The notes under the pieces were generated by a model. It ran no database searches and was not told the DNA's origin. It saw only the letters and a list, made by a program, of their open reading frames with translations. From assembly GCF_025526975.1 (NCBI RefSeq), contig NW_026515693.1, forward strand, positions 62,001-126,000: a stretch of 64,000 nucleotides of DNA, given 5' to 3'. Numbering within the stretch: position 1 is the first letter of the stretch; every line of letters begins with the position of its first letter. A program made the position numbers and the translations under genes. This DNA comes from Fimicolochytrium jonesii. Taxonomy: Eukaryota. Positions 9,147 to 43,880 of the stretch are shown one piece after another.

Positions 9147-10592
9147 TGTAAGGTCGGTTCTTGCGTCGCCGCGCGTGATGTGATGAAGTTTACGTCGGTA
9201 TTGTCAGCGGTGTGATTGATAGTGAGCGGTTCTTGCGGCGTCGCGCGTGTGATGTGATATGAGATGCTCTATGCTGTTCGTCTCCGTATCCACAAAGATT
9301 GTGGGTGAGCTTTTTGCCGTCGTTTGTAGGCAGGTGTGTAGCAAAGTGCGGATTCGGGTTCCCAAGTAGGGTCAGGATAACCGAGCCATTTGACTAGAAG
9401 ATTTTGTACGGCGCGTCGCTCGTCGATGATATCTTCTACAACCCATTCAGGTTGTCCTCGTTCTTCGATTGGTGGAGGAGGTTGAGGAACTGCACGTTGC
9501 GGATACTGCTCTTCGCGATATGGTCGTAAAATATTGACGTGAAAGACGGGCTGGATGCCGCTGATCTTCATTGGTAATAAATCGAGTTTGTAGGTATCAG
9601 GATGTGCTCCCAGTGCGATAATGTTGAATGGTCCGATCCACGTAGCTGAGTATCGAAGTCTTCTTCGAGCGTCTACCTCTAGGTTGATTCCTTGTTGATT
9701 TAGGTCGACGAGGTCGCCAATTTTGTATGCGACTGGCGTTCGACCTTTGTCATGTTGACATGCGAATTGATCTTGCGATCTCTGAAGGTTTTTGCGTACG
9801 ATACGGGCGATATCTTCCTGCCCTTTTTTGAAGAGTTCGATTTCGTTTCGATCTACAGCTCAAAGTTTGAGTTCCTGTCCTTCGAGTGTTGGATTCCAAC
9901 CCGGGAGGATTGGAGAGCGTCCGAGATCTACCTCAAATGGTGATAAACCTTCATATTCCTCCCTCGGAGCGGTGTTGTATGCGAATTCGATTAAAGGCAA
10001 TAGTTTCTTCCAATTGCTTTTGTCGTAGTTGAGGTATTGCTTCCAAATCCTTTTCAGGGTTTGGATGGCTCGCTCAACTTTGCCGTCAGTTTGCTGATGA
10101 CCAGCCGTAGCGAATTCGTGTTTTACGCCGAGGAGAATATCGAATGCGAGGAAGAAGTCGGAAAGTGCGCGAGGTTCGCGATCCGTAACAAAGACTTTTG
10201 GCGTACCGACATGTTTCCAAACATGGTCTAGAAAGACTTGGGCTAGTTTGCGTCCAGTGATTGTCTTCTTGATTGGTGTCAGAATCACACGTCTGGAAAG
10301 GTAATCAATGCAAACGAGACAAGAGTTTGTTTCATCTACTTCGAAAATGTCGAATCAGATCGTGTGCCATCTTCCAAAAGGTATAGGAAGAGGTCGAAGA
10401 AACCCGTATCGATGATGACCAGGTTTGGATTGTCAACAGGATTTGCAAGTTCCAACGTATTTGATGACGTCGGAGCGTACGGTAGGCCAGTAATAGTCCG
10501 TAAGAATTCTCGCAAGAGTCTTCTTAACACCGAGATGTCCTCCGGTGGCGAGTTCGTCATGGAATTTCCGCAAAATCTTCGGGCGAATGTCT

Positions 10593-13127
10593 TCAGGAAC
10601 GTATAGACGTCCTTCGTGTCGTACTAATCCATTTTTGAACGTATAACGGAGTTCTTTCAAGTTTTCTCGTGTTGAGGCTTTCGAGAGATTTCATCGAGAT
10701 AATCCGAATATGGATCTTCGCATAGCGGTGGTTTCCATTCTTCTTCTGAGCAGACAGGTGAGTTTGTGGATTGTCTGTCGTAGCATTGGAGGAAGGTTCA
10801 TTGACAAGCATGTTGCTGATCTGCGTATGCATGTCGAGGCGTCGTTGACAATCTACACCCTGAGGTGCATAGATTGGATTGTGGGAGAGCATGTCGGCGA
10901 TATGATTCCATCGTCCAGGTAAATACTGGATGTCGAAATCATACTCTTGTAGCTTTTCCACCCAATTGGCTTGTCTTCTGCTCAAATGGGGTTGCGCTTG
11001 GATGAATTTGAGTCCCTTGTGATCGCTAAAACATCGGAAGTAACGACTGATGAGATATGGTGGATTGGCGATCAACATCTTGACAAGAGCTAATAGCTCC
11101 TGTTCGTGCGTAGGATATCGAGTTTCTGCGTCCTTCATCTTTCTAGAAAAGAAGACCACAGGCCGGAGCGGAGGTAACTTCTTCCATTGTCCGACGAGAG
11201 TAGGCAGATTTGTAGGGATCGTTTCATTGCCAGAAGGTTGTCCAATCCAGCCAGCGATAGCGTAGCCTGATGAGTCGGTATAGACATAAATTGGCTTGGT
11301 TTCATCGATTGTTGCTAGCGTAGGCGCATTGATCAACGCTTCTTTCAACTTTTGAAATGCCTCTTGTTGCCCAGGACCCCATCGAAATTTAACTTTCGAA
11401 GATTGAATACTTGATAGGGGCAGAGCGATGTCCGAATAACCTTGTACGAAGTCGAGGAAGTAGTTCGTGAACCCGAGAAAGCTTTGAACTCCTTTTGTTG
11501 GCTTTGGAATAGCCCAATCCTTGATAGCTTGGATTTTTGAGGGCGCGATGCGAACACCATGTCTTCCGACAATATGTCCACACGATTCGAGTTCTTCTTT
11601 AGCCCATACGCACTTTGAAGGCTTGATGTAAAGGGCGTGTTGTTCAAGTTTCTTCAGGATACGATGGACGTGTTCCCGATGTTCGGCTAAGGTCTTCGAG
11701 AAAATGAAAATGTCGTCCAGATAGGTAGCGAGGAGCTCGTCGTAATCTTTATGGAAGATCTTATTCATAAGACGTTGAAATGCAGCAGGTGCGTTGGTAA
11801 GCCTGAACGGCATGACCAAATACTCGAAATGTCCGAAGCGAGTTCGTATTGCTGTTTTTTCTCGATCTTGTTTTCGTATAAGAAGACGATGGTATGCTTC
11901 TCGAATATCGATAAGTGTAAACCATTTACAACCTTGAATCCGATCCCTCATCTCACGAATATTGGGTAAAGGAGTGCGATCTTTTTTGGTGACGGAGTTG
12001 AGACCTTGGTAGTCCCAACAGATGCGTAATCCGCCATCTTTCTTTTTCGCAAAGACGACACTAGCTCCCCAGGGACTTGAGGAGTGTTGTATCCATCCTT
12101 TTTCCAGCATCGAGGTGATTTGTTTCTTGAGTTCAGCAAGTTCTTCTCTGTTCATGTGCCGAAGAGGTTGCCTAACGGGTTCAGCACCTTCAGTGAGTTC
12201 GATCTTGAAATTATCTTCTCCGCAATCAGGGGGTTGACCTTCCGGTTCCTTGAAGAGCGTACTGACGTATTTATATAGGATATCCTTGAGATGTCCTGGA
12301 TTTCCTTTAAGCTCTTGAGGAGCGTCCGGGATTTCGTTAAGAGCAAGGCGACAGACTGTGTCTTTTTCAAACTTGTTCCGTCGCCAAGCCTTATTGAATC
12401 GCTTGGAACTCATTTCTATGACTTGAGGATTGCGAAGGGCATTGGCTTGAGCGAATCGAGATACGTAATGAGGTGCGGCTTGTAGAGGACGAGTGACCAC
12501 AGGTTTGATGATCTGAACAGGTCGAACGGGTCTTTTGTGATAAACCGGATCTCGTTGTACATCGAAGTAAGGGTTGTTGTGTTTTGGGATGTATTCAACG
12601 TCTTCCCAGTTTCTTGAAGTTCTTTCGCACTTGATGGTGACAGACTGCAGTGCGCTTGGTATAGGGCCGTAATTGGTCCAGCAAAGGATAGGTAAGGTAC
12701 TCATCGAGAACTGTTCAGCGTAATTAAAGAAACGCCAGAAAGGCATTCCAAGAATAGCGTCGTAAGCCAGATTACTGACTAGCCAGGGAAGTTGTCCAAC
12801 TAAGAAAAGCGACTGAGATTCGAGATCCGATAGATCTAACTTTTCCGAAACGACCGTGTCAAGAATCATGTATGATTCTTTGTCGGCCAGCCATATCTGC
12901 TTCGGTTTGATACGTTTCTTGGGAAACTTGTGCTTTTCGACGAATGTCTTGTCAAGGAATAACCCAGTTGCGCCGCTATCAAAAAGAAAACGAGCAAGCT
13001 TGTTTCCGATGCGACAATGAGAGACCCAGAGTCCAGCATACAGTCGTTCAAAGGCAGGTTTATCGGTAGGATCGTATGTTGTGGGCCGAGCAGAGCTACC
13101 GAGGGGCTCTATCGACCTTGGAAAAAA
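10593..13127 (-). pseudogene. Element A pol (PR-RT-RH), entered by a -1 frameshift; IN and chromodomain continue in broken frames to 9269
   Basis: The -1 frame from slippery T TTT TTC (13127..13121) is open through FLFDSGATG into ORF 10593-12869 (RICWDYQGLN, YLVMPFRLTNAP, YLDD, YTDSSG). Confidence 0.88.
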
Positions 13128-14447
13128 CTCGACGATTGATTTGTAGTACTATTCTTAGTATTCGCAGACTTGACGGCGTCATCGAGAATTTCCGTAATGC
13201 GTGACCTACCATCAACCTGATTGGCTGAACCTTGTTGTTGATTAGGTTGGCGACTGCGCTGCGGAGTTTGAGCACCACGACCGCGCTGTCGAAAACCACT
13301 GCGTCGGTTCTCGGTTTGCGAGCCTTGCTGTCGATTTTCGGGATTTGACCAGCATTCAACTCTCCAATGTTCCATTTTGTTACAAAGGGGACTAGGAGTC
13401 ATTGGACGTTGACGAGGAACATGAGTAGTTTGCCATTGTCCACGTCGACAAAAGGGCTGTTGACGCTGGTAGAGAACTTGACCTGTTGTGAGACGACTCA
13501 CTCCAGGGGGATAGTATGACGTACCGAGGGCATTGAGCCCAAAGGTCATATCATCTAAGTCTTGCTCGAAATCCGTAATTCGAGGATTGGTGTAAGGGGC
13601 AAATCGTCCGCCACGACCACCGCCACGAATACCTCGACCGCGACTGGCTCCACGGCCGCCACGAGCACTTGTTGCCGAGGCAATCGGACGAGGTGTAGTG
13701 GCTTGGTTGCCGTCAGTGAACCCATGGGCCACATGAGCACGACGGGCTGCAGTGATAGCTTGATCGAGAGTGATAGGGGTGTTGATGTTGGTAGTGCTCG
13801 AGACTTCGAAGTTTGTAACGGGTTCACCGAGATAATGACCGATTACTGTATTCTTGAGAAGACCAGCCTTGAAGTATCGAATCTGATGGATAAGGGGAAT
13901 GGTGCCTTGAGTGTTATCGAGACGATGAGCGGCTTCGAGCTCATTATTGGTGTCTTGAAACTCCTTGATATATTTTTTGAGAGAGTCACCGAGCTTGAGG
14001 CCGGAGAGCTTGAGCTCAATAGTATTACGCAAATTGCGGGGATAAAAGTGAGCGACAAGAGCCGTTTGAAAAGCTGTCCAACTCGCGGGAGCGCCGGCGG
14101 CGTAAGTCGTATTGTACCACTCGAGAGCAGTACCCTTGAGGTAGGTAGTGAGCGTAGGAGCGTATTCTGCCATAGTAAAGGCTATGGCGTTGGCAGCTCC
14201 AGTACCGTCTGGTTCAGCTTGTACAGCCGGGACGGTGAAAGACTCGAGAAAGTTGTGGTGAGACGTAACGAACTCTTCGATCTTTTTGGCAGCTTTGGCA
14301 TCATCATATTCGACGAGCTTGCTCTTGTAAGCTTCCATAAGAAGTCTGAAATGTTTGGTTCATTGGGTGTCTTGCGTAACAGCACGCTCCCAAGTAGCGA
14401 AAGCATCTGCAACAGCCGCAACGATAGCTTGAGTTTGTTGGTCCATT
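13109..14447 (-). pseudogene. Element A gag
   Basis: ORF 13109-14338 with retrotransposon-gag W/F pattern and degenerate knuckle. Its N-terminus (MDQQTQAIVAA) is frameshifted relative to copy 2 (ORF 19217-19585). Confidence 0.85.
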
Positions 14448-14811
14448 CTTGCTTGTGAACGAGTGTAAGGGCGACGCCCAGTAGAGGGGCCACGTTGACA
14501 AGGAATGTCTTGGTGATGCTAGCGGTAGGTGGTGCTACCATGTAACGTCAGAGGAAACGTAGACGATATTGGGCCCTTCTGAGAGGGCTGAGAGCAGTGT
14601 ATTGTAGTGAAGAAAAAAGTAAGAAGCTCTTTGCAGCGGCCGCTCGACTGACAGCCTTATATATGGGCTGCCAGTGGGGCTTGCGTGGCTTCAGTGAGGC
14701 TTGGCGCCTTACGTAATGTATCACCGAGAGCTCTGGTGGCCAGCCCGGGTCTCGGATCAAGTAGAAGTAGATGAGATATCCCCAACAGAAGCCCTCTAGA
14801 ACGCCTTCAAC

Positions 14812-16464
14812 GTGCGTACCGAAGACACGCCTCAATCCGTCACTATGACCTGGCGACAAGCGATGGCCTCCCCTCAATCAGCTGACTTCAAGCTCGCAGC
14901 TGATAGAGAGTTCCAAGCCCTAGTTGATAACGGGACTTGGGAGCTCGTACCCCGTCCGCAAAATCAGCGCGTACTTGGTAGTACTTGGGTACTTTGTCAA
15001 ATCTTCAATCCGGACGGTACTTTCAAGAAATTCAAGGGCTGCGGTGTAGTTCAAGGTTTTCGTCAATCCAAGGGTATTGATTATAACGACACCTACGCTC
15101 CAACCCTACCCATGTCAGTTCTTCGCCTTTTCCTCTCCATTGCCGTCTCTCTTGGTATGGAAATCCATCAACTCGACGTCCCCAACGCGTTCTTACGCAG
15201 CAATATCAACGGACACGTCTATGTTGAACAATTTCAAGGCTACAATGATCCGCAGAAACCACGCGCAGACTGGGTATACCTCCTACGCAAGGCTCTATAC
15301 GGTCTCAAGCAATCTCCGCTTCTCCGGTACCGTACCCTTCGCAAAACCCTCATTTCTCTCGGCTTTACCCCGTTCAAGAACTGCCCTTGCGTCTTCTATC
15401 GCTACGCAACAACGACGCGCACTCTGGACGCTCTCCAGATGCTCCTTATCTATGTGGACGATTTCATCGCCTGCTGCTTTCCCGTACACGTCAAACAAGT
15501 GAAAGGTGAACTATGTTCTCATTTCAACTGTACGGATCTTGGTCCCATCAAGAACTGCCTAGGTCTGGTCTTCGATTACCAGCTCTCGCCGTCAGGGAAC
15601 CAACTCAAAATCAGCAATGTTACCTATATCGACGGTTTACTTGAACGATTTGGACAACAAAACGCTACCCCAGTCTCTACGCCGTGCGCCGTCTCTGCGC
15701 GTACCCGACCAGCCTCCGCAAGCCCCCCTTTTCATAGCAAACTTCTCTACCAGGAAGCAGTGGGGGCCCTCACGTGGGCATCCATTACCTGGCGCTGGGA
15801 TATTTCAACTGCGGTCGGCTTCGTCGCACGTCAAGTCTTAGCTCCTACTCAAGCCGACTGGAATGATGTACTTCCCATAATGCGCTACCTGAAAGGTACC
15901 CGCACCTTCGAGCTTACCTACAAGTCCGGTCATTCAGATCATGCTGGACTTCGCGTCTATACAGACGCATCCTACGCAGACGATGTCAACGACCGCAAAT
16001 CTACCGCGGGCATCGCCAGCTTCTTCAACGGCCAGCTTATATACTGGAAAAGCACCAAGCAGAAGTGCGTAGCTCTCAGCTCCACGGAAGCTGAGTATAT
16101 CGCCGCATCCCTCGGTTACAACGAGGTCATATGGCTCCGCTCGATCATCGCGGAGGTCTTCGGTGACAAATACGGCAACATCAAGGACCCCACGCCACTC
16201 CACATCGACAGTCAGAGCGCCCGCGAGATTGCCAACTCCACGGCTATTACTCAACGCTCCAAACACATCGACGTACGCTACCACAAGCTACGCGACGGCG
16301 TGGCAAAGAAAGACGTTGTACCCCTCGACACCGCGACGCAGGAACAACTGGCTGATTACTTCACAAAGTTTTTTCCTCCCAAGACACATACGAAATTTAT
16401 TCAAGCAATTCAAGAAGGACGCGTCGACAGCAATAGACAGCCGGCGACGACTATGTCCGAATGA
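14812..16464 (+). CDS. Copia reverse transcriptase-RNase H (C-terminal part of pol, frame uninterrupted)
   Basis: NGTWELVPRP, GIDYNDTYAP, QLDVPNAFL, LRKALYGLKQS, IYVDD, DASYA..RKST, SSTEAEY, SKHIDVRYH, QLADYFTK. Confidence 0.95.
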   Translation: MRTEDTPQSVTMTWRQAMASPQSADFKLAADREFQALVDNGTWELVPRPQNQRVLGSTWVLCQIFNPDGTFKKFKGCGVVQGFRQSKGIDYNDTYAPTLPMSVLRLFLSIAVSLGMEIHQLDVPNAFLRSNINGHVYVEQFQGYNDPQKPRADWVYLLRKALYGLKQSPLLRYRTLRKTLISLGFTPFKNCPCVFYRYATTTRTLDALQMLLIYVDDFIACCFPVHVKQVKGELCSHFNCTDLGPIKNCLGLVFDYQLSPSGNQLKISNVTYIDGLLERFGQQNATPVSTPCAVSARTRPASASPPFHSKLLYQEAVGALTWASITWRWDISTAVGFVARQVLAPTQADWNDVLPIMRYLKGTRTFELTYKSGHSDHAGLRVYTDASYADDVNDRKSTAGIASFFNGQLIYWKSTKQKCVALSSTEAEYIAASLGYNEVIWLRSIIAEVFGDKYGNIKDPTPLHIDSQSAREIANSTAITQRSKHIDVRYHKLRDGVAKKDVVPLDTATQEQLADYFTKFFPPKTHTKFIQAIQEGRVDSNRQPATTMSE

Positions 16465-16522
16465 GACATACGGAACACCCGTACCGGGACGGCTTCTGGG
16501 CACTACATACAAATCCGGCACC

Positions 16523-17176
16523 TTAACCCGCCACCGTGATAGCCGCCGCTGCCCCGGCACCGGGGGCTCGACCGGCTCCGGCTCCGCCTCCACCAGGCGG
16601 ACCCCCTGGACCACCTCCCCCGCCGTTTCCGTCACCGTCTCCATCCTCACTCGAAGACCAATCATCCATGTGCTTTTGCAAGTACTGGAGTCGCTTCATC
16701 ATCTTGTCTCGCTCCCGTCTCTCGACTGCATCACTGCGGCGCTTCGCGTCTATCATCTTTTCTTTTGATATGCCGCCTTTTGCCTTATATCGCGACTCCG
16801 AGACTGCCTTACATCCAAGGTAGTCTGCCTCCTCCATCAATGCCTTGAACAACCCCTTCTTTCGCTTCGATCGATCCAGTTCCGCCTTTGTAAACGCCAG
16901 GTGCTTCGCGAGGTTCTCATGGTTATCCTTGCGGTACCTCAACGTCGATACCTCTGTCGCCAATCGAAGAGCTTCTCTAACTCGGGCTTTCGACATCGAA
17001 GAGTTGCTTGCGGACGCTGCGGACGATGCGCGCGTAGAGCGCGTAGTCGGACGTGAGGGTCCCGGAGGAGGTGCAGCTGGAGGGGCTGCGGGCGCTCCCG
17101 TCTTACGGGCCGTTTGCTTCTTCTTGCCGTCGCCGCTCTTCTTGCCACTCCCGCTGTTCTTGCCTCCGTTCGCCAT
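16523..17176 (-). CDS. Antisense accessory protein of Copia H, 217 aa, with H3-tail-like KQTARKTG motif
   Basis: Intact ORF between pol stop and PPT; AACAATGG start context; TATAAAA at 17276..17270; basic N-terminus, Pro linker, charged helical core, acidic/Gly-rich tail. Confidence 0.72.
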   Translation of the reverse strand: MANGGKNSGSGKKSGDGKKKQTARKTGAPAAPPAAPPPGPSRPTTRSTRASSAASASNSSMSKARVREALRLATEVSTLRYRKDNHENLAKHLAFTKAELDRSKRKKGLFKALMEEADYLGCKAVSESRYKAKGGISKEKMIDAKRRSDAVERRERDKMMKRLQYLQKHMDDWSSSEDGDGDGNGGGGGPGGPPGGGGAGAGRAPGAGAAAAITVAG

Positions 17177-17688
17177 TGTTTCGCGTATCGTGTGGTAGTC
17201 TGGGATACGGTAGTTGAGTATGGGGAACGTTGGTCTTACCTCTCTGGGGCAACTGACAGCTGTCTCTTGTTTTATACTCGCGGCGTTTCCCCCCTTCTTT
17301 CATTTTACTCTTTCATTTCTTTCAATTTTAGTCATAGCTAGTCACCCAACGTCCGCCAGCTTTTCGCGTACGGCCACACCATTGTACTCATTGTTTGCTT
17401 TATCTTTCACTTAGATAGACTCATGAGTTTGAGTGGGGGTGTTGGAGGTATCATCCTCCCGAGTCCCCGGTTAGGGTTCCCGTACGTTATTTCCTCACCT
17501 GACTCCCCTCCCGCTTACGCCACACTTCCGCGTACGGGACTTCACTCTTTTCTTCCCTTTTGGACCTCGCGTCCTCTTTTCACTTTAGACTTTTCTACAC
17601 AAGACAATACATACTTCACAGTACAGCATTGCACACTACATAGAGTTCGTTCAGTCATCTGCTTCCTCTGCCGACTACTGCTAAGTGA

Positions 17689-20600
17689 TCTCGTTGAACA
17701 TTGAAGTAAGGGTTGTTGTGTTTCGGGATGTATTCGACGTCTTCCCAGTTTCTTGAAGTTCTTTCGCACTTGATGGTAACAGAGTGCGGTGCGTTTGGTA
17801 TAGGGCCGTAATTGGTCCAGCAAAGGATAGGTAAGGTACTCATCGAGAATTGTTCAGCGTAATTAAAGAAACGCCAGAAAGGCATTCCAATAAAAGCGTC
17901 GTAAGCCAGATTACTGACTAGCCAGGGAAGTTGTCCAACTAAGAAAAGCGACTGAGATTCGAGATCCCATAGATCTAACTTTTCCGAAACGACTGTGTCG
18001 AGAATCATGTATGATTCTTTGTCGGCCAGCCATATCTGCTTCAGTTCGATACGTTTCTTGGGAAATTTGAGCTTTTCGACGAATGTCTTGTCAAGGAATA
18101 ACCCAGTTGCGCCGCTATCGAAAAGAAACCGAGCAAACTTGTTTCCGATGCGACAATGAGAGACCCAGAGTCCAGCAGACAGTGGTTCGAAGGCAGGTTT
18201 ATCAGTAGGATCGTATGTTGTAGGCCGAGCAGAGCTACCGAGGGGCTCTATCGACCTTGGAAAAAACTCGAAGATTGATTTGTAGTAGTATTCGTAGTAT
18301 TCGCAGAGTTGACGGCGTCATCAAGAATTTCCGTAATGCGTGACCCAGCATCAACCTGATTGGCTGAACCTTATTGTTGATTAGGTTGGCAACTGCGCTG
18401 CGGAGTTTGAGCGCCACGACCGCGCTGCCAAAAACCGACGCGTCGGTTCTGGGTTTGCGAGCCTTGCTGTTGATTTTCGGGATTCGACCAGCATTCAACT
18501 CTCCAATGTCCCATTTTGTTACAAAGGGGACAAGGAGTTGTTGGACGTTGACGAGGAACGTGAGTAGTTTGCCATTGTCCACGTCGACAAAAGGGCTGTT
18601 GACGTTGGTTGGGAACTTGACCTGTGGTGAGACGACTCACTCCAGGGGGGTAGTATGACGTACCGAGAGCATTGAGCCCAAAGGTCATATCATCTAAGTC
18701 TTGCTCGAATTCCGTAATTCAAGGGTTGGTGCAAGGTGCGAATCGTCCGCCACGACCACCGCCACGACTACCTTGACCATGACTGGCTCCACGGCCGCCA
18801 CGAGCACTTGTTGCCAGGGCAATCGGACGAGGTGTATTGGCTTGGTTGCCGTCAGTGAACCCATGAGCCACATGAGCACGACGAGCTGCAGTGATAGCTT
18901 GATCGAGAGTGATAGGGGTGTTGATGTTGGTAGTGCTCGAGACTTCAAAGTTCGTAACGGCTTCAGCGAGATAATGACCGATTACCGTATTCTTGAGAAG
19001 ACCGGCCTTGAAGTATCGAATTTGATCGATAAGGGGAATGGTGCCTTGAGTGTTATCGAGACGATGAGCGGCTTCGAGCTCATTATTGGTGTCTTGAAAC
19101 TCCTTGATATATTTTTCAAGAGAGTCACCGAGCTTGAGGCCGGAGAGCTTGAGCTCAATAGTATTACGCAAGTTGCGAGGATAAAAGTGAGCGACAAGAG
19201 CCATTTCAAAAGCTGCTCAATTTGCGGGAGGTCCAGCGGCGTAAGTCGTATTGTACCACTCGAGAGCAGTACCCTTGAGATAGGTGGTGAGCGTAGGGGC
19301 GTACTCTGCCATAGTAAAGGCTATGGCGGTGGCAGCTCCAGTACCGTCTGATCCAGGTTGTACAGCCGGGACAGTGAGAGACTCTAGAAAGTTGTGGTGA
19401 GACGTAACCAACTCTTTGATCTTTCTGGCAGCTTTGGCGCCATCGTATTCGACGAGCTTGTTCTTGCGAGCGTCCGTAAGAAGTTTGAAACGTTCGGCTT
19501 GTTGGGTTTCTTGCGTACTAGCACGCTGCTGAGTAGCGAAAGCAGCTGCGACAGCCGCAACGATAGCTTGAGTCTGTGCGTCCATTCTTGCTTGTGAACG
19601 AGTGTAAGGGCGACGTCCGGTAGAGGGGCAACGTTGTCAAGGAATGTCTTGATGATGCTAGCAGTAGGTGGTGCTACCATGTAACGTCAGAGGAAACGTA
19701 GACGATATTGGGCCCTTCTGAGAGGGCTGAGAGCAGTGTATTGTAGTGAAGAAAAAAGTAAGAAGCTCTTCGCAGCGGCCGCCCGACTGACAGCTTTATA
19801 TATGGGCTGCCAGTGGGGCTTGCGTGGCTTCAGTGAGGCTTGGCGCCTTATGTATCGTATCACCGAGAGCTTGGGTGGCCAGCCCGGGTCTCGGATCAAG
19901 TAGAAGTAAAGAGATATAATATGAAATACAAGTGAAGATGAGATACCCGGACACCTCCCTCAGATCCTGAGGAGGGCGCCGAATAAATAAGAGGTGAACT
20001 ACGAGGGATATGTGAAGAAAGGGAGAGCTCATGTTCATTTTATAGTGTTGACAAACTGTGTGATGTGTGTGTTTGAGGCAAAGGCGTCCCTAAGCCGACA
20101 TCGTGTATGATATGTGTGTGTAAGGTCGGTTCTTGCGTCGCTGCGCGTGATGTGATGTAGTTTACGTCGCTATTGTCAGCGGTGCGATTGATAGTGAGCG
20201 GTTCTTGCGGCGTTGTGCGTGTGATGTGATATGAGATGCTCTATGCTGTTCATCTCCGTATCCACAAAGATTGTGGATGTGCTCTTCGCCATCCTTTGTA
20301 GACAGGCGTGTAGCGAAGTGCAGATTCGGGTTCCCAGGTAGGGTCAGGATAACCGAGCCATTTGACTGGAAGATCTTGTATGGCGCGTCGCTCGTCAATG
20401 ATATCTTCTACAACCCATTCAGGTTGTCCGCGTTCTTTGATTGGTGGAGGAGGTTGTGGAACTGCACATTGTGGATATTGCTCTTCGCGGTGTGGTCATA
20501 AAATATCAACATGAAAGACGGGCCAGATGCCGCTGATCTTCGATGGTGATAAATCGAGTCCGTAGGTATCGGGATGTGCTCCCAGTGCGATGATTTTGAA

Positions 20601-20702
20601 TGGTCCAATCCACAAAGCTGAGTATCAAAGTCCTCTTCAAGCGTCTACTTCTAGGTTGATTCCTTGTCAATTCAGATCGACGAGGTCGCCAATTTTGTAT
20701 GC
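17689..20702 (-). mobile_element. Chromovirus A, copy 2 (protease-gag-PBS-LTR followed by a chromodomain-coding segment)
   Basis: 17689-19679 aligns with 12550-14540; 19680-20702 aligns with 8349-9730 minus the solo-LTR insertion; several premature stops. Confidence 0.92.
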
Positions 20703-20738
20703 TTTCATAATCATACTTCTTATACGGGGTCGGGAATT

Positions 20739-21004
20739 TGTTGGAGGTTTCATACTCCCAAGTCCTTAGTTAGGGTTCCCGTAGCTTAGTCCCTGGTTAG
20801 GGTTTCTACTAGTTAAGTTCCCTTGTGACTCACCTCCCGCTTACGCCACGCTTACGCGTACGGGAGTTCACTCTTTTCTTCCCCTTCGGACCTCGCGTCC
20901 TCTTTTCTACTAAGAGACTTCAATACATACTTCACAGTACTACATCTCACACATCATAGAGTTCGCTCAGTCATCTGCTTCCTCTGCCGACTACTGCTAA
21001 GTGA
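20739..21004 (+). mobile_element. Second copy of the Copia H LTR (right boundary uncertain, may extend to ~21070-21140)
   Basis: TGTTGGAGG start and high similarity to 17440-17688 (e.g. CAGTCATCTGCTTCCTCTGCCGACTACTGCTAAGTGA). Confidence 0.85.
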
Positions 21005-22050
21005 ATTATGGGGACGGTTACAAAATCCGAAATTGGGAATATCTGCGGGTTTGACGACAAAACATTACAACGGGGTTAATCCAATCTCACTCTCAGCTCT
21101 TCCTATGAGATTCCTGAACTATCAAGTCCTCGGCAACATCAGCAAAGTACAAGTCGTGACACTCGGGGTCGTCTTGTCTATGCTCTCCGGGTCTCTGAGC
21201 GCGCCTTGAAAGTCTATCTGAAACTGAAAGAAGTCGTCGGGAGTAGAGAAGTAGAGAGCTCTGTTGTCGATCGGGATCTGTGTTCTGCGTACACGGATCT
21301 GAGTTTTTGCGTATCGTACAAAGGTCTGGGGAAAACAGGCGGGTTTTTATATGGATTTTTCTAGGCTACGGGATTTTGTCGAAGTCCAAACTCTCTACTA
21401 GTTGTCTCTAGAGGATTTAGCTACGTCTGGGTCTTTTTCTCTTTTCCTGCAGCGGTCTACGTCGTTTTTACTTTTCCCATTCGCAATTTCTACGCTGATA
21501 CAGTCTTATCGCTAATCATTTCTTCAACGTTCGGCGGGTTTTTCTTCAACGTTCGGCGTATACGGCCACCGGAAATTGGTTTTCTCGTTTCGCAGTTGAT
21601 TTCTTCAGCATTTCGGGCATCGTGGGAGCTTCTGGTTGGTTGAGAATCGGGTCGGGGGTGCTTTCATGTGTGAGAACCTCTCCTACGCCTACATTTTTCG
21701 CATGTCAGTCGTATCCGAGGACAAAATATCGTGGTGAAGACAGGTTTCGGTAAAGGCAGTTGTATTTGGTAATCGTCGGAGTGTTGGGAACGCGAGTGTG
21801 TCGATTTTTTGTCGAAAGTTTTGATGGTATTTGTCATTGTCGTATGAAAGTGAATTCATTTATTCGTCAAAGATTCTAGGCGTATAATTGGCATCAAAAT
21901 ATTATTGATTTCATGCGCAGTTCGAAGCGCACTACTACAGCGGTAGCTGGCAGAGGAGAGCGGACTATGAGTGAGCTCTATGTGATGGGGAGGCGAAGCC
22001 CTTTATTGTATAAGAACTTATACCGTGTTGCCTGAAGTAGAAAGAGGATA

Positions 22051-22253
22051 TGTTGAGGACTACCTCCCACAAGGGTTGTATGACTGATGTTTGTAGACAA
22101 TAGCTACTTTGCTGTAAGGTATTGTAGACGGACTGGATGTTTGCCAGCGCTGCTATTCGATATGCAGCCAAAGAACTACTTGTTGTGAATAGGAACGCGT
22201 GACGAGCACTGTTTAAAGTACCCATGAGGCTGAAATCCACCGGAGAACACCGT
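22051..22253 (-). mobile_element. Diverged partial LTR of the 8820-9146 family
   Basis: Aligns with 31314-31516 (GGACTACCT...CTACTTTGCTGTAAGGTAT.GTAGACGGACTGG...GGAGAACAC). Confidence 0.85.
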
Positions 22254-24611
22254 GGCGAAGAGGTCCACAGTGTGGCCGTGGGGGCCTCCCCAGGGTCCAA
22301 CATCGAGTTGTTCGAAGATGTCCGGGTGTAATTGCCAATTGTTCTTCTCAACCAAGTTGATCCAGTAAAGTTCTTTTTCGGGCGGCGGAGACAGGTAGCG
22401 GGTTCGGTCAGGGTCCTCCGAGTCGAGTTCTTATTCTCTCGACTTGGACAGGTGTTGGGGTTGTAACGATTCCTCAGCTATCATTATGTCTCCACGCGTT
22501 TCCCAGTCGCTTGCGGAGTCGGAATCACTGCCTCTTATCGGTTCTGACGGTGACCGAGCATGTGGGTTCCAGGACTAGGAGGCTCTCGGCCCCTGGCCCT
22601 GCCAGGGAAAGTGCCGCTTGTCAGCATCGGCATTTCCCACCTCAGGGCTTTGTTTCTTGGGGCATACTGGTCTCCCCGTCTCGCGGTCCATGTCCTCCTG
22701 AAGTGGTTACCCCTGCAGGCAAAACACTTTCCATCTCCGATCCTTGGTATTCCTCTCGACGACTGGCCATTGGTAATCTGCACCTTGGCCATTTGGCGGC
22801 AATTTCAGCAACCCCCTCCTTCACAACTTCTTGTACCTGCGTACTGAGGTCATTCTGCCCCTGCTGGCCATAGTCGCTACCTGGGTACGGCTGGCAGAGG
22901 TAGGGACCTTGTTGTCGGTCCATCATGTACGCTCCGTAACCGGAGTCATCATCCCCGTCATTGTCAAATTCTGTCAGGTTTACGGCCCCTCCTAGATGTC
23001 CACATCGGCTACCGGTTAAACGTAGATCCTCTTTGAACTCGGCGATTTTGTTCTCCGCCGCGTGCTTTGCTAGGTTTTCGACATCTGCGGTAAGCATTGT
23101 ATTAGGTAGGGCAATTTGAACGGCTGTCTTCACAATGGGCAACGGGGATCCTCGCTGAGGCCAGAACTACTTGTTATGCTTCCTGTTGCGGTGATGATGG
23201 CTTCGTTTGTCTTCCAAAGAAAAAGCAGAAGAGGAGCCACTGGTGCTCGACCCTGAGTCCGGTGAGGACGAGGAGGAGCTTCGGGCATGGCGTCGGCTTT
23301 GGAGCCGTTTCTTGTCGATCCTTCGGTACCTCCTCGATTTTGTCTTGCTCACGAGGCCTGTGGCCTTGGTAGAAGGCGTACTTGAGTTGGCCTAGCTTAA
23401 CAGCAACGTCACCGAGGCAGGAATTAGCTTCCTGAGTCGAATTGAGAAGTCGCGCAACGTTTCCTGCTTGAGTTTCTTCATGCTGGCTACTTTTCCCGAG
23501 TGGTAGATAGGAGGTATCTTCTCGTCATACTGAGCTAAGAATTGCTCCTTGAATTGCTCAAACGGAGTGTTGGTCAACGACAGACTGTTCCACCATTTCT
23601 TCGCTCCATCCTTGAAGAGGGGATCAAACTTGGGCACCATGTCATTGAGGTTATCGAAGTACCTTTGGTCTACGGCCCTTTGAGCTTCGTACTTCAGCCT
23701 CTCGAGGAATCTGTACGCGTCTTCTCCCGGCTTGCCCTTGAATCTTGCCGAGATGTCATTCTTCAACTTCCAATGGGCTCGCTCAAATCCTGTTGCGGCC
23801 GCTTCAAGTACCGTGGCCGCCGTTGGGGCCACTGGGGTGGCTCTAGCACATGGTCCGTCTGCCATTTCCTCTTGATCCTGATCGGGATTCCTTCTGCCAA
23901 CCGGTGTGTACCAGATGTCCTCTTGTTTCAGTCCTTGGTTGGGGGTCTTTGCTCGGGCTTGTTCTTGAGGAGTCACCGGGGCAACAGCGGAAGTAGCTGG
24001 ATGGATGGATGGATAGGTAGATGGTGGTTGCACAATAGAATACACAGGGGGATTCGGGGATGGTGGGCTTGGTACGGGGGCAGCAGGACTGCTAGGTGGG
24101 CCTGATACGGGGGCAGCTGGACTGCTAGGTGTGTCCGGTGTCAGGGACAGGTTCACGCCAGATGCTGAGCCTTGGTCTGGCAACAATTCCTTGGACGATG
24201 ATTCCTTGCCTTGGAATTGCGTACTCTCTGTGCTGCTAGGACGAGTCGTTTTCGATCGTATGCTGCTCGTTGGGCTGTCACACTACTTGCAGCAATTGCT
24301 TGCTGGGTCGACGAGCGGCTTGAGAGGAACGGAGACTAGCAAGAAATTCTGCGTCAGCCAGTTTCGCTATCTTGATCTTGGTGAAGATCTATCGTCTGAT
24401 CTTCAATCTCTGGTGGAGATTGGTGCCTCGCTTCTCCACAGGGCAACAGAGAATGCGACGCGGGGTAGGTTTCTTGTAAGGTGGCAGATGTGGTTTGCCG
24501 ATCCGTTCTGGGAAATGACCTCGTAGATTCCTTGTAATTCCTTCCTTGTTTTTCCTTTAAGGTGGTCTCTTCTTTTCCAGCCCCTGAGATAGGTCCTAAA
24601 TCGGGTCGTTC
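22254..24611 (-). pseudogene. Decayed Gypsy-like gag(-protease) relic 'E'
   Basis: ORF 23392-24186 (FKGKPGEDAYRFLERL...AKKWWNSL...FEQFKEQFLAQY) is gag-like. Degenerate knuckle KCFACRGNHFRR and MLDPG protease-like motif lie in broken frames. Confidence 0.72.
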
Positions 24612-24615
24612 GGAG

Positions 24616-27600
24616 TGAGATATCATCAAGATGCGGCACTTAGAAGGCTCTGCAAGACTGAGGACGCGTCTTGGGAGGCTCTGAAGATGTCTGAACCGTT
24701 TCCCAGACATCCAGGCGTTAGCACTGCGCTTTCTTGATGTTCTTAGAGCTCATACCGGTCAGTAGTGCCCGTAGGGAGTTGTGATCAGGTTGTAGTAGCT
24801 AGATTGGGCTTGATTGAGCTTGTGGTAGCCTGTAGCACCTTCCGCGGACTTGGCAGACGCCCATGGGGCATCAGCAGGTACCTGTGAGGCTACGCAGACT
24901 TGGCAAAACCTTCCAAACCATACCAACCTTAACTGCGGCACTCAGAGACGCCTTGGGCGTTCTGAGGGGGTCTCAGAGGATGCTTTGGACGCCCCAGCAC
25001 ATAGCTAAATCCCCAAGAAAGGAGCCCCAGATTCCGATAAAAGGCAGACCTGTTGCCCCTCCCCTCCTCTCACATTATCCTCTTCAATACACAGCTTTCT
25101 ATCGCACTACTCTAGCCACAGTACTGTCTTCTACATCACATCACTGCCCTTTGGGCAGCTACGTCCCTCAGGCATCGGCGAACCAGTCTTAGTGACCTCT
25201 CAGATACACCTATATCAGCTAAGGTTTCAATAGGTTATGAGCCCTGAGCTTCACCGTCTTTGCCACCATCATTTTCACTAAAACCGTCTTTGCCGATCCT
25301 ATTCAAGACCTTCCCAACCCCCTACAGACGCTACCTACGCCCTCCCCTCGACGTATCCTTCCAAAATCACCAATTTTCGACCGAAAACGCACCAAAGTGC
25401 TCAACTCAACAAGATACGCACGACTTGACACTCAAAACGCGTCCAACGATATACCATCATCCAAAACGCGTCCACACACTCGAAACAGACAAATTTCGCT
25501 CGAACACACGATGGCTGGAGACTCAGAGACTTCAAAATTTATGCTGGATAAGTTCACGAGGGAGAACTACCATCTATGGAAGTTTAGGATGATGATGATG
25601 TTGAAGGCGAAGGGACTTTGGGTGGCAGTGGAAGCTGGGAAGAAGGAGAAGGAAGGAGATACGGCTACAGCAAGCCCATCGAAGACAAAGGGGGCTGAAG
25701 GGGAGGAGGAGGAGTCGATGGAGAGCAAGGACAAGAGGGCTTTGGCATACATCTGCCTCAGTCTGAACGACACTCAGTTTATGCATGTGCATACAGCTCA
25801 GGGGGCTTGGGAAGCCTGGTCTAAGCTAGCTGAGGTGCACAAACGAAAGGGCCTCGCCAGCAAGCTCTTCCTACGTCGAAAGTTCCTTACCATCACTATG
25901 AACGAGTCAGACTCGATCACAAACCACATCAACAAAGTCAGACAGCTTGCACAACAGCTGGAGGCTATTGGCGCACCAGTACCCGAAGATGATATCATGA
26001 CCACCTTGATATACAGCTTACCAAACAGCTAGGAACAAGTTATCACGAGCCTCGAAAGCAGGGCGGACGACTTAGACATGGAGCTATTGACGGCCAGATT
26101 TCGGAATGAAGAAGCTAGGCGCAAGGAGAACTTGAAACGAGTCAGATCGACTGGAAACGCCTTCGTTGGGGACGGGGGACACCAGCAGGAAGCTGGGGGT
26201 TCAGTCAGATTTGCCAGGAAGAAGGGAAAGTGCAATCACTGTGGCATTGAAGGGCATTGGAAGAACGAGTGCAAGAAGCTCAAACGAGAGCTAGCTCAAG
26301 CCAACAATGCAAATCAAGCCGAATCACACCAGGCCAGCCAGGGAACTGGGTTCCTCTTCATGGCAGCTATGAAACGCACTGAAATCAGCCCAGAGTGCTG
26401 GATTATCGATTCAGGAGCCTCCTCACACATGACACACATCAGGGAATGGCTCCAGGACTACAAGACTCTGGAAACCGAGATCCAGGTCCAGCTAGCTGAC
26501 AACCGGTCAGTCCTAGCCATCGGAACAGGCTCCATCTTGATCAGAACACACGGGGAGCACGCTGGCACCCTTCGAAATGTCTGGTTCGTTCCCAAAATGG
26601 AAAAGAACCTCATTTCAGTAGCCCAGCTGACTGAGACCGGAGCACAAGTAGAGTTCTTGAGTGCAGAGTGCACAATCAAGACCAGGGACGGTGCTCTTGC
26701 CTTCGGAGCTCTCAAGGAGAACGGTCTGTACACCATAGCAGCCCACGCTATCCCTGAACACGCCTACTCAGCAGGAGTACTTCGTGGCACACCCTTTCAT
26801 ATCTGGCATCAGAGACTCGGTCATCTGAATGCCCAAGACGTCCAGAAGCTCACCAACGGCTACCCACGTGACATCAGAGTCACCGGACATCCTGATGGCC
26901 ACATCTGCGAAGTCTGCACGCTCTCCAAGCAGTCCAGATCTCCCTTCCCGAAGAAACAAGCTACCCGAGCCACAGAAGTCCTGGCACTCGTCCACACTGA
27001 CCTCTGTGGCCCCACAAGGACGTCTACCTTGTGGGGGATGTACCTACTTCGCATCATGGATTGATGACAAGTCCAGAATCGTCTGGGTCAAGCTCCTACG
27101 CAAGAAAAGCAATACCTTTGATGCCTGGGAGGAATACAAGGCTCTTATGGGGAGACAGACTGGGAAATCAATCAAAGCCCTCCGATCAGACAAAGGAGGC
27201 AAATACGAATCCATCCAATTTGCCCTCGCACTCAGAAAGGCTGGAATCCAACACCAGCGCGCTGCTACCGACACCCCACAGCAGAACGGAGTAGCGGAAC
27301 GTATGAATCGAACTCTACTCGAAATGGCACGCTGCCTACTCACCCGGGCTGGTCTCACACATGAATACTGGGGAGAAGCTCTGCTCGCAGCTGTCCACAT
27401 TCGAAATCGTTGCCCGACGGCTGCCCTAGACAACTTCAAGACGCCGTACGAAGCCTTCTTTGGTTGCAAGCCCATCCTCCTTCATCTCAGAGTTTTTGGA
27501 TGTATAGCCTATGCTATGCTTCTCAAAAAAAACCAAGGAAAGCTGGACAACAAAGCCAAGAAGTGCCTCTTTCTCGGTTATAGCTCTTCCAGCAAAGCCT

Positions 27601-31650: not shown

Positions 31651-34600
31651 AGATTCTACGACGCGAACCTGCCCAGCAAGCTCAAGCAGAGCAGAATATG
31701 AAGGTGTCCGGGATCGCACCCAGCGCAATCCTTACTGGTCCTCGTCGTTGTCAGTCCAAATAACCATGGTTGTGCAGCGAAAAACCATGGTTATGCAGCA
31801 AAGTAACCATGGTTCTGCAACTGGACGTCAGAATAGTGTGTCATTCACGAAACCTTTCCAGAGGACTCTCGTGGGTAGCGACGCTTGCAAACCATTCTGA
31901 TTCAATGGTATTTGCCATCCAGGCTACCTGCTGCCGGCAGCGGGTATCCCAGCTGTGAATGCAACGGGTGTGCTTTGTATCGCACGTTGCCTAAAACAAG
32001 TTGTTGGGCAATGGATGTACGCAACCATCGAGCCAACGAAGCTCTGCCGTTCAAAGTCAACGCCTATGTGTATCTCCGGGCATACACACCACCGAGTCTC
32101 CAGGAGTGATCAGTTCCTGCTTACTCATTACGGACGGCGGCCGTAAACGTATTTACCCAATGCGGATGTTGTGTACCATCAAGGGGTCGTGTTAACACTT
32201 GTTTTGTGTAGCACGTTGCGCTCCCTTTCACAGCTTTTGACTTATGTCCAACGATATCGTGAACGAGACCTTCTCTACTCGATTACAACGATATCCGATG
32301 TGTTATTGGACAGAAGGTCCCATCCAGCTACAGATCATTCATGGCCTCCAGCCAACCGTGCACTCTTGCATCGCAGAGCCTCAGTTCCCTTAGAGTGCTT
32401 CCACTTTCGCTTATCTGTAACAGATTCTAATTCACCATGGACCAAGATGAAGTCGTCTAACGCAGCGCAGTCTTTCGCTCGCTCGTGCGTTTCCCATGAC
32501 GTCTGCTCAGGTGGGTAACCCTTTCACTGACAGCTCGGAAGGCCTTCCACCTAGACAGCGAAAGGTCTTTCACTGACGCTGGGTGTTGATTCCTGGTCCT
32601 AAAGGGCTTAAGGAAGAAACAGGCCTACATAAAGTGGAAGAATAGAAGTGACCATTGTAGAGATGTAGGAACCCAATTAGAATCTGGACCAGAACTAACT
32701 TGAAAGATTCCTGGTGACAGCAAACAATCACGAAGTGATTATGACACAATCCTGAACCAATGCAATTTGCTGGAAGAGTTCTTGCGGATTCGCTATTACC
32801 TACTAACGAATCTTTTTAACTAGGAGCAATTAATAAGGTTGCCTGTAAGTCACATTGGTGATTACTATTTTTCCTGGTGCTTGTTATGATCTCGACGACT
32901 GAGGCGGCAGCGAAGTAGAGAAGACAAGGCGAGAGCGATGGGCGACAAGAGATTGTATTGGCGGAACAAGAGACAAGAACTAGAACAAGAGATGAGAAGA
33001 ACTGGTGTTAATCTGCTGGGGAGGAAGGGAATGGACGAAGAGAGGCCGGCTATTTATAGATAGGCAACCCAGCAGGCCAGAGAACAACAACAACAAGAGG
33101 GGACTGGGGGGGGCGCCAGCTATGCTCCTAGAGCGTGCGTGGCGAGCGTAGAGAGCATTGCTACAGCTGCTGGCTATGGGGGAGTAGTGGGGGATGTGGA
33201 CAAGCCGAGGGGGATTGGCAAAATGTGAGGAGAGAGGAGGAGTGGCGATATTGCGGGAGGATTGGCGAAATGAGAGGAGAGAGGGGGAGTGGCATTGACA
33301 TTGACATTGACACTGACATTGACACTGACACTGACATGGACATTGGCGCTTGACATTGGCGGTTGACATTGGCGGCTGTCAGTAGGTAAGCTTATGGTAT
33401 GGGCGCGTCGTCCATAACATCACCCCTCTCTTTAGCGGCGGCGGCGGCGGCGTCGAGTTTGGTGTGGCCGCAGAGGAGGTGCTACGGGGACAGAGGAAGG
33501 CTTGTTGGGGTACGCGCTGTGGAAGTCCTGGAGGAGTGCGTCGGTATGGGTGAGGTGTTCCACGGGCTCCCCGGTGTTCTCGGAGTCAGGCCAGCCCTGC
33601 CATTTGACCAAGTACTGAAGGCGACGACAATGGATGCGAGAGTCAAGGATGGCTTTGACAACCCACTCTTCTTGACCCTCAACGGTCTCTGGGGGCGCAG
33701 GTTCGGGTTCGTGTCCTTCGGGGATGGTGAAGCGGGGTTCGAGGAGCGAGACATGGAAGACATCGTGGATTTTGTACATAGGCGGGAGCTTGAGCCGGTA
33801 GGCGACGGGATTGATTTTTTCAACGATGGGGAATGGCCCAATCTTGCGATGGTCGAGTTTCTGAGAGGGCCGGGTTGTCTGGAGGTTTTTGCGGAGGAGC
33901 CAGACGTGGTTGCCAGGCTTGAAGTCCGGTCCAGGAATTCACTTAGCGTCGGCGTAGCGCTTCATTCGATCTTGCGCTTCTTTGAGCTCTAGGACGAGCT
34001 GTTCGTGGAGTTCCCTGATTTGTTTAGCGCGGGCTTCAGCGGCGGGGTTGACGGATTCGGAGGTAGCAGAGGCAGCGAAACTGAAGCGGGGGTGGAGACC
34101 CTTGTTGGCATAGAAGGGGGTGGTCTGGGAAGCGGACTGGTGGGTGTTGTTGTAGGCGAACTCGGCGGACGACAGAAGCTGCTTTCCAGTTGTCCTGTTG
34201 GTGGTTGCAAAAGCATCGGAGATACTGCTCCAGGATCTGGTTGATGCGTTCCGTATGGCCGTCGCTCTGGGGGTGGAAGGCCGAGGAGAGGTTGGCTTTC
34301 GCCCCAAGGAGTTCGAGAAGTCGACGCCAGAACCGGGACTTGAACTGGGGTCCTCGGTCAGAGATGATGTCGTCGGGGAGGCCGTGGAGACGGATGATAT
34401 TGTGGAAGACTAGGTCGGCGGTGGATTTGGCGGATTCTGACTCGCTGCAGGCAATGAAGTGGGCCATCTTGGTGAGGCGACAGTTGACATTCAGGATGGA
34501 GTCGTACCCATCAACGGGAGGCAGACTCGTGATCAAGCCCAGGGACCAAGATCCCCAAGGGCGGGTAGGGATACTGTTGGGCTGGAGTAGGCCGTAAGGT

Positions 34601-43000: not shown

Positions 43001-43880
43001 TGGAAACGTCTCTTCGCTCTCCTGGGAACCAAGGTCAACCTCTCATCGGCGTTCCATCCCCAGAGCGATGGACAAACCGAGCGGACCAATCAGATTCTTG
43101 AGCAATACCTTCGCTGCTTTTGCAACTATCAACAAGATAACTGGAAGGAACTCTTGTCTTCTGCTGAGTTCTCTTACAATAACACCATCCACTCCGCCAC
43201 CCAGACAACCCCCTTCTACGCCAACTATGGAGTTCCATCCTCGATTCAGTCTGGCTTCCGCCACCACAACCGAATCCCTTAATCCTGCAGCCAAAGCTCG
43301 TGCCAACCATCTCAAGGAAATCCATGAACAGCTTGCCACTGAGCTCAAGGAGGCCCAAGGACGCATGAAGCGCTTTGCCGATGCTAAGAGGGCACCTGGC
43401 CCAGACATGAAACCCGGGGACAGTGTCTGGCTCTTACAGCGGAATCTCAAGACTCTCCGACCTTCCCAGAAACTTGATCACCGTAAGATTGGCCCCTTCA
43501 CAATCACGGAGAAGATCAACTCGGTCGCATATCGCCTCAAGCTTCCCCCATCCTACAAAATTCACAACGTCTTCCATGTCTCCCTTCTTGAACCACGTTT
43601 CACCATTCCGGAGCGAACTGAGCCAGAACCCACCCCACCAGAAGAAGTCGAAGGACAGGAGGAATGGATTGTGGAAGACATTCTCGACTCCCGTATTTGA
43701 CGCACGCACCTTCAGTACCTCATCAAGTGGCAGGGTTGGCCAAGCTCGGAGAACACATGGGAGCCAGTGGAACACCTTGCCCGCTGTCAAGAGCTTGTTG
43801 CCCAGTTCCACCAAAAGTACCCCGACAAACCCCGACCAAAGCCTGCCAACATCAAAACAACATCCGGACGCCGTGGCTAA
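40031..43880 (+). pseudogene. Pol of element D: PR-RT-RH-IN-SH3-like-chromodomain, two late lesions
   Basis: -1 frame open from 40031 into ORF 40211-43282 (LLDTGA, YLDD, SDASD, ISMDFI, SDRGPQF, SDGQTER). Continues in ORF 42930-43700, then past a TGA into QYLIKWQGWPSSENTWEP. Confidence 0.93.

What the first reader, a model, noticed from the sequence alone, without database searches (positions are those of the whole stretch)
16523..17176. Copia element carries an antisense gene with a histone H3 K4-K9 tail mimic (candidate anti-silencing decoy)
Seen: an intact 217-aa minus-strand ORF sits between the pol stop (16464) and the PPT/3' LTR, tail-to-tail with pol. Residues 20-27 (17119..17096) read KQTARKTG, versus H3 residues 4-12 KQTARKSTG: six identical residues spanning K4 to K9, in a G/K-rich unstructured N-terminus. 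A Pro linker, a ~110-aa charged helical core and an acidic/Gly tail follow. Known: ARK(S/T) is the motif methylated by Clr4/DIM-5/G9a-type enzymes and read by HP1-type chromodomains; G9a itself carries an ARKT mimic; canonical Copia elements encode only gag-pol. Inference: the element encodes a decoy or adaptor for the H3K9 heterochromatin machinery, in a locus also occupied by chromodomain-bearing elements. There is no free ARTK N-terminus, so K9 mimicry is more plausible than K4 mimicry.
Basis: partly seen in the sequence, partly recalled or inferred. Interest (0 to 1): 0.88.

Follow-up and report, generated by a model that had tools for sequence, protein, structure and literature searches.

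The report
Copia antisense gene with H3K9-like tail
A broken jumping gene, likely from a fungus, carries an intact extra reading frame on its opposite strand whose floppy front end matches six residues of histone H3 around the silencing site lysine 9; it is likely a real accessory gene and may act as a decoy for the host's silencing proteins, but conservation of the motif could not be tested.

Summary
A 217-aa minus-strand ORF lies between the pol stop and the PPT/3' LTR of a 5'-truncated Copia element. Residues 20-27 read KQTARKTG, with K25 equivalent to H3K9.

The ORF is probably a real gene: chance 0.4-1% in shuffles, gene-like codon score, TATAAAA 100 nt upstream, AATAAA 121 nt downstream, and one probable homologue (P0125, E 2.6e-7). 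It fills a 975-nt spacer; 26 of 28 comparable Copia loci have 222 nt or less.

The mimic is unproven. A K9-spanning 6-mer arises by chance in about 0.05% of composition-matched shuffles, any H3-tail 6-mer in 0.3-0.4%. The gapped alignment to H3 is not significant, and Copia RNase H gives chance H3 6-mers. The motif fits HP1-type readers and SUV39H1-type recognition but departs at T11/G12, which DIM-5 needs. P0125 as recorded lacks the tail. A chromodomain docking prediction passed only weakly. No genome, family copies or RNA data were available. The core is not a degenerate histone fold.

Antisense accessory ORFs are known; an H3K9 mimic in one was not found in print.

The parts
16523..17176 (-). 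Antisense accessory ORF, 217 aa (P0001): basic disordered N-tail (1-57, net +10), helical charged core (about 58-176), acidic Gly/Pro tail
17096..17119 (-). KQTARKTG, H3 K4-K9-like motif (K25 = K9), preceded by G-K-K hexapeptide repeats that include an 18-nt tandem duplication at 17119-17154
17270..17276 (-). TATAAAA 100 nt upstream of the ATG, candidate antisense promoter; no ATG between it and the start; start context AACAATGG
   Evidence: 5 such sites in the window; 5% by local shuffle
16396..16401 (-). AATAAA 121 nt after the ORF stop, inside the 3' end of pol; candidate poly(A) signal
   Evidence: about 1% by shuffle
14845..16464 (+). Copia pol remnant, RT + RNase H, open frame; family signature W-x-x-[IV]-[ST]-W-R-W-D-I shared with P0005/P0006
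17431..17439 (+). Polypurine tract
   Evidence: sequence
17440..17688 (+). 3' LTR (TG start; ends ...AAGTGA, not CA)
14775..14790 (.). 5' truncation junction with a Gypsy LTR; gag, protease and integrase are lost
20739..21004 (+). Sister LTR (82%), likely the 5' LTR of a related copy whose 3' part is not in the window
33519..33665 (-). Neighbouring Gypsy chromodomain with aromatic residues at the three cage positions (W, W, W); context only, used as an HP1-type proxy

Best explanation
The ORF is likely a real antisense accessory gene of this Copia family, and its disordered N-terminal QTARK(T) motif is likely an H3K9 mimic that, once methylated, would bind HP1-type chromodomains and so blunt or redirect silencing of the element. 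Shown: the ORF, its position between pol and the PPT, the motif, and candidate TATA and poly(A) signals. Inferred: transcription from its own promoter in the 3' spacer, nuclear entry through the Lys-rich tail or KRKK, an elongated helical core that may oligomerise and display several tails, methylation of K25 by a SUV39H1/G9a-like specificity rather than strict DIM-5 specificity, and reader binding. This copy itself is a truncated relic.
For: An ORF of 217 aa or more appeared in 8, 14 and 19 of 2000 shuffles of the 966-nt spacer. Codon score is 0.112 bits/codon (13 known genes: -0.06 to 0.30; above 14 of 15 shadow ORFs; the other five frames 0.002 or less). TATAAAA, no upstream ATG, and AATAAA are present. 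Probable homologue P0125: 35% identity, E 2.6e-7; core score 22.3 bits versus a maximum of 15.1 in 20,000 shuffles. The spacer is unusual: 26 of 28 fetched Copia loci with a detectable 3' LTR have 222 nt or less and 0 of 28 hold an antisense ORF of 200 aa. A K9-containing H3 6-mer arose in 63 and 48 of 100,000 composition shuffles. SUV39H1 reads K4 to R8 and accepts T at +1 (PMC8303541). The G9a mimic has K-T and binds HP1 (PMC9768651). Complex prediction of tail 8-40 with the window's Gypsy chromodomain gave weak support: 0.54 versus best of 3 controls 0.02, at least 90% contact agreement, partner pLDDT at least 59. That mark was reached by 51 of 78 solved and 2 of 108 mismatched pairs, but at 0.60 or under by only 5 of 78 solved and by all 4 passing mismatches of 180; peptides are uncalibrated and likeness to solved chromodomain-H3 complexes may explain it. 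TE copies show about 2.7-fold more transitions at CpG in 3 of 5 pairs, consistent with host methylation of TEs.
Against: P0125 as recorded begins at the core and has no tail; its start may be a gene-caller choice. Its core alone scores only 20.7 bits (E 41 library-wide). The best gapped alignment to the H3 tail was matched by 459 and 287 of 5000 shuffles, hhalign probability was 1%, and phmmer against PDB did not retrieve H3. Any H3-tail 6-mer arises in 0.3-0.4% of shuffles, and Copia RNase H DRKSTGG gave 2 chance 6-mers in 79 loci. A host protein in the window also has AARKT. K4 sits in a KKK run, so the specific part is QTARK. DIM-5 needs R8-G12 (PMC3248561) and the motif has G, A at +2/+3. 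The synonymous codon signal is about zero (0.003). This family is not CpG-depleted (o/e 1.18) but neither is a neighbouring Gypsy without a known extra gene (1.09-1.17), so no escape from silencing is shown.
Confidence: 0.4

Rival explanations
1. A real antisense accessory gene like maize Grande gene23 or Botrytis brtn: a basic, nuclear, nucleic-acid-binding or scaffolding protein whose Lys/Arg-rich tail is a nuclear-localisation or charge segment and resembles H3 by chance.
For: All evidence for a real gene. The homologue as recorded lacks the tail. Net charge is +20. Chance 6-mers occur at 0.3-0.4% per such protein, and a genome-wide scan meets many such proteins. The tail is built from G-K-K repeats. 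Grande's product is nuclear (PMC7264820).
Against: The match is centred on K9, continues as T-G, and sits in a histone-tail-like N-terminal position; about 0.05% by shuffle.
Confidence: 0.35
2. A host gene fragment or piece of another mobile element captured or inserted once into this copy, and not a family feature.
For: Only one copy is available. The region is a nest of insertions and deletions. The genomic context of P0125 is unknown.
Against: No terminal repeats or convincing target duplication flank the spacer. No Pfam family and no similarity to other elements in the window. The gene fits between pol and the PPT with its candidate poly(A) signal inside pol. Transduced genes are usually in sense orientation (PMC7264820).
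Confidence: 0.12
3. A chance open frame in a GC-rich spacer; if transcribed, it is the antisense RNA that matters.
For: GC is about 60% with low-complexity ends. The core alone is open in some frame in 434 of 5000 shuffles. No synonymous codon bias.
Against: Full-length ORF chance is 0.4-1%, there is a probable protein homologue, and the codon score is frame-specific.
Confidence: 0.08
4. A captured histone H3 gene decayed beyond recognition, with the motif as a remnant of the tail.
For: By eye, core segments recall H3 alphaN and alpha2 (RY-x-K, AL-x-E...YL). One very gap-permissive alignment beat all but 4 of 1000 shuffles.
Against: An H3 profile scored the protein -0.4 bits, matched by 515 of 2000 shuffles, and the core by 1427 of 2000. 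hhalign aligned only the 13-residue motif. The models are long helices, not a histone fold.
Confidence: 0.05

Closest known systems
Antisense additional ORFs between pol and 3' LTR (aORF-3R): maize Grande gene23, rice RIRE2, Silene Retand, bean PvRetro13, Botrytis Boty brtn (PMC7264820 main text; PMC11963269 passages)
   Same: Same position and orientation; no database match; candidate own promoter upstream of the ORF as in Grande; predicted nuclear basic protein.
   Different: Here a Copia element, in a 975-nt spacer (Retand: 2.9-6.6 kb); no TRP28 or SMC domain; carries an H3K9-like motif. 'histone' does not occur in the Retand survey's main text.
Cellular H3K9 mimics: G9a K185/GLP K205, LIG1 K126, ATF7IP (PMC9768651 passages)
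   Same: Short ARK(T)-type motif in a non-histone protein; Thr after the target Lys as in G9a.
   Different: Those are host proteins with demonstrated methylation and reader binding, and they act in the silencing pathway. Here nothing is demonstrated and the gene is transposon-borne.
Viral histone mimics (influenza NS1, SARS-CoV-2 ORF8) and plant VANC anti-silencing proteins (all recalled, not read here)
   Same: A parasite-encoded protein proposed to subvert host chromatin.
   Different: Different motifs and hosts; VANC proteins belong to DNA transposons and act by sequence-specific DNA binding (recalled).
Chromovirus integrase chromodomains, e.g. MAGGY (PMC3350952 passages)
   Same: A retrotransposon engaging the H3K9me system.
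   Different: MAGGY reads the mark to target integration; this protein would imitate the mark.

Membership tests
Ty1/Copia LTR retrotransposon | RVT_2-type RT followed by RNase H as the last pol domain | tested here: met
Ty1/Copia LTR retrotransposon | PPT and 3' LTR | tested here: met
Ty1/Copia LTR retrotransposon | gag-PR-IN upstream of RT, paired LTRs, target-site duplication | tested here: inconclusive
   5' part deleted at about 14780; relative P0127 extends upstream into a region that matches the window's other Copia at 27099-27677
aORF-3R antisense accessory genes | Long antisense ORF between pol and 3' LTR | tested here: met
aORF-3R antisense accessory genes | Present and conserved in most copies of the family | not testable with these tools
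   No genome; no related loci; one contextless homologue
aORF-3R antisense accessory genes | Antisense transcript from its own promoter | tested here: inconclusive
   Sequence signals only
H3K9 histone mimics | ARK(S/T) core in an accessible disordered segment | tested here: met
H3K9 histone mimics | Motif selectively conserved | tested here: inconclusive
   P0125 lacks the region as recorded
H3K9 histone mimics | Methylated by an H3K9 methyltransferase and bound by a reader | not testable with these tools
   Weak docking prediction without a methyl group
DIM-5/SUV39H2-type substrate | R8-K9-S10-T11-G12 context | tested here: not met
   Motif is R-K-T-G-A against requirements in PMC3248561 and PMC8303541
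Histone H3 | Histone-fold core homologous to H3 | tested here: not met

The most novel reading that the evidence does not exclude
A fungal Copia family encodes, from its own antisense promoter, an oligomeric decoy whose H3K9-mimic tail is methylated by the host and soaks up HP1 and chromovirus chromodomains: a retrotransposon anti-silencing factor by histone mimicry that could also divert rival chromodomain-guided Gypsy integrases.
Probability: 0.3. Interest if true: 0.85.

Novelty: new variant of a known kind. Interest (0 to 1): 0.52.

Why it matters
Antisense accessory ORFs of LTR retrotransposons have had no known function since their description (PMC7264820). A short, mutable H3K9-like motif gives a direct test (K25R, QTARK swap) of the idea that they counter heterochromatin. 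If true, it would be a retrotransposon using histone mimicry against its host, which five literature searches here did not find described. If the motif is incidental, this is still a new antisense gene family in a Copia lineage.

Tried and rejected
No genome is held for the window. No sequencing run was listed for 14800-17690; that is no evidence on expression.

Homologue searches. Word-based searches found none for the whole protein or the core. ESM Atlas gave no usable hit twice. No related loci for P0001 or alignment A2 in metagenome, viral or prokaryote contigs. RT-based scans returned 79 distant Copias at 27-35% identity from 3 of 64 parts of the metagenome collection and nothing in viral or genome contigs. 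P0126 is a repetitive Ser/Thr/Pro-rich match to residues 24-78 and was set aside.

Structure. Foldseek PDB found no match. VIA-align wide gave only generic long-helix matches, best Z 7.6, none 8 or more; this is uninformative on fold. The A2 profile against PDB gave only weak hits (best E 0.043).

Degenerate full H3: tested and not supported. A 40-nt GT-AG intron in the 5' UTR (17239-17200) is possible, but the two host introns I read are about 70-90 nt, so it was left as speculation. CpG content as a sign of escape from silencing is not specific to this family. No Rfam match at 14500-22100. An RNase H tree was attempted but the script returned nothing and it was not rerun. The region after the sister LTR matched no Pfam family and tblastx against the 79 loci printed nothing.

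Full report
Observation. The ORF at 16523-17176 on the minus strand encodes 217 aa, and residues 20-27 are KQTARKTG. It lies 58 nt past the stop of a Copia RT-RNase H ORF (14845-16464; RVT_2 E 2e-44) and upstream of a PPT and an LTR at 17440-17688. H3 genes fetched from IMG/VR contigs confirm six identical residues, K4-K9.

Setting. The window is eukaryotic, with intron-bearing RPS0 and acetate kinase genes. I read it as an early-diverging fungus from recall of such sequences; no call tested this. Bases 1-45,000 are a nest of Copia and chromodomain Gypsy elements. The element in question is cut at about 14780, where it abuts a Gypsy LTR, so gag, protease and integrase are missing. A sister LTR at 82% lies at 20739-21004. 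The closest RT relatives are P0005, P0006 and P0127 at 52-54%; the next hits are about 35% over the same span. Transitions were about 2.7 times more frequent at CpG sites in 3 of 5 repeat pairs; the two short LTR pairs showed 0.7 and 1.5 times. This suggests that the host methylates its transposons.

Is the ORF a gene? Probably (about 0.85). In 2000 dinucleotide shuffles of the 966-nt spacer an ATG ORF of 217 aa or more appeared 8, 14 and 19 times under three schemes. A codon model from 13 known window ORFs scores it 0.112 bits per codon, inside the range of those genes (-0.06 to 0.30) and above 14 of 15 shadow ORFs; the other five frames score 0.002 or less. The synonymous part of that signal is nil (0.003). 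TATAAAA stands 100 nt upstream with no intervening ATG; there are 5 such sites in the window, three of them in LTR sequences, and the local shuffle chance is 5%. AATAAA stands 121 nt after the stop, chance about 1%. Of 79 distant Copia loci, 77 had RNase H on the plus strand and 28 of these a detectable 3' LTR. In 26 of the 28 the LTR starts within 222 nt of the pol stop, and none of the 28 holds an antisense ORF of 200 aa. The window's other Copia has no spacer.

Homologue. A full HMMER scan of 1.84 billion representatives gave 2 hits. P0125 (149 aa, Logan, contig 2,249 nt) aligns over residues 65-201 at 35%, E 2.6e-7. It shares L-R-x-R-K-D, E-x-L-x-x-H and Y-x-G-x-K and the acidic Gly/Pro tail. 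About half of the score comes from outside the core: the core alone scores 20.7 bits, E 41 library-wide, though 22.3 against a best of 15.1 in 20,000 shuffles. BLASTP with composition adjustment gave E 5. It is a probable, not certain, relative. It starts where the core starts and has no tail; its start codon and context could not be checked.

Structure. Two AlphaFold models (mean pLDDT 61 and 60, pTM 0.23-0.25) give a disordered N-terminus, two long helices and a disordered C-terminus. The heptad pattern is weak (best a/d hydrophobic fraction 0.44), so oligomerisation is only a guess. I noticed H3-like spacing in the core by eye and tested it: an H3 profile and hhalign gave no support.

Is the motif a mimic? 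For: a K9-containing H3 6-mer arose in 63 and 48 of 100,000 composition shuffles, and the post hoc pattern KQTARK[ST]{1,2}G in 0 of 200,000. It lies in an N-terminal G/K/S-rich tail. SUV39H1 reads K4 to R8 and accepts T at +1 (PMC8303541, passages). G9a's mimic has K-T and binds HP1 when methylated (PMC9768651, passages). That HP1 contacts mainly Q5-S10 is recalled. A docking prediction of residues 8-40 with the window's Gypsy chromodomain scored 0.54 against a best control of 0.02 (at least 90% contact agreement, partner pLDDT at least 59). The tool rates this weak: the mark was reached by 51 of 78 solved and 2 of 108 mismatched pairs, but at 0.60 or under by 5 of 78 solved and all 4 passing mismatches of 180. 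Peptides are uncalibrated, and likeness to solved chromodomain-H3 complexes may explain it. MAGGY-type chromodomains bind H3K9me2/3 (PMC3350952, passages).

Against: any H3-tail 6-mer arises in 0.3-0.4% of shuffles, and the gapped alignment is matched by 6-9%. H3 is not retrieved from PDB while ribosomal L15 is. In 1.2 million six-frame residues there were three 6-mer matches, two of them Copia RNase H RKSTGG, and a host PHD protein carries AARKT. A four-residue G9a-type motif is in over 17,000 proteins in a Scansite search (PMC10611923, passages). DIM-5 needs R8-G12 (PMC3248561, passages), while the motif has G and A at +2 and +3. The homologue lacks the tail as recorded. CpG content does not single out this family. 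I put the chance that the motif is selected at about one half.

Mechanism. Most likely the spacer promoter drives an antisense mRNA ending inside pol. The basic protein would enter the nucleus, K25 would be methylated, and the tail would occupy HP1-type chromodomains, as a decoy or as a tether. Every step after the sequence anatomy is inferred. The main rival, an accessory nuclear protein with an incidental motif, is nearly as likely.

Known context. Antisense ORFs between pol and the 3' LTR are described for Grande, RIRE2, Retand, PvRetro13 and the fungal Boty, with unknown function; Grande's is nuclear and has its own promoter (PMC7264820, parts 1-2 of 3, the whole main text; PMC11963269 and bioRxiv 10.1101/2021.04.13.439636, passages). 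Searches for a retrotransposon-encoded H3 mimic (listings only) found none; the library lacks most subscription papers, and no supplements were read. Earlier AI notes of this scan report H3-like tails in other retroelements and one fungal Copia antisense gene; these are unchecked leads, not support.

Verdict. Observation confirmed; likely a real accessory gene; mimic plausible but untested. New variant of a known kind, interest 0.52.

Noticed in passing
window 17440-17688 and 20739-21004: Both LTRs of this Copia family end ...CTAAGTGA rather than CA, and the sister is followed by ATTATGGGG, which recalls the GGTTATGGG half-tRNA primer site of some Copias (recalled).
   Followed up: partly
window 12548-14779 and 17687-19917: A 2.2-kb Gypsy segment is duplicated at 93% on both sides of the Copia fragment; tandem chromovirus copies with nested insertions and a deletion.
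   Followed up: partly
window 43698-43700 (+): A Gypsy with 99% identical LTRs (38545-39074, 43893-44422) has a stop codon inside its chromodomain.
   Followed up: no
window 9147-22047 versus 1-6200, 22254-29903 and 38545-44422: CpG o/e is 1.1-1.26 in the internal regions of Gypsy A and this Copia family but 0.61-0.76 in other elements.
   Followed up: partly
L008 and L009, RNase H: The conserved Copia RNase H motif DDRKSTGG matches H3 R8-G13 exactly; a chance match and a useful control.
   Followed up: yes
window 54653-58975 (-): A 1440-aa PHD-finger host ORF with an AARKT motif near its N-terminus (58876).
   Followed up: no
L037, 1.6 kb after the pol stop: Another Copia with a long pol-to-LTR spacer holding a 163-aa antisense ORF.
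   Followed up: no
L067, within 1.2 kb after the pol stop: A 313-aa antisense ORF that looks bacterial (signal peptide, glycoside-hydrolase-like by eye) beside a Copia pol; possible chimeric contig.
   Followed up: no
window 17200-17239 (-): Possible 40-nt GTAAGA...CCCAG intron in the 5' UTR of the antisense gene.
   Followed up: partly
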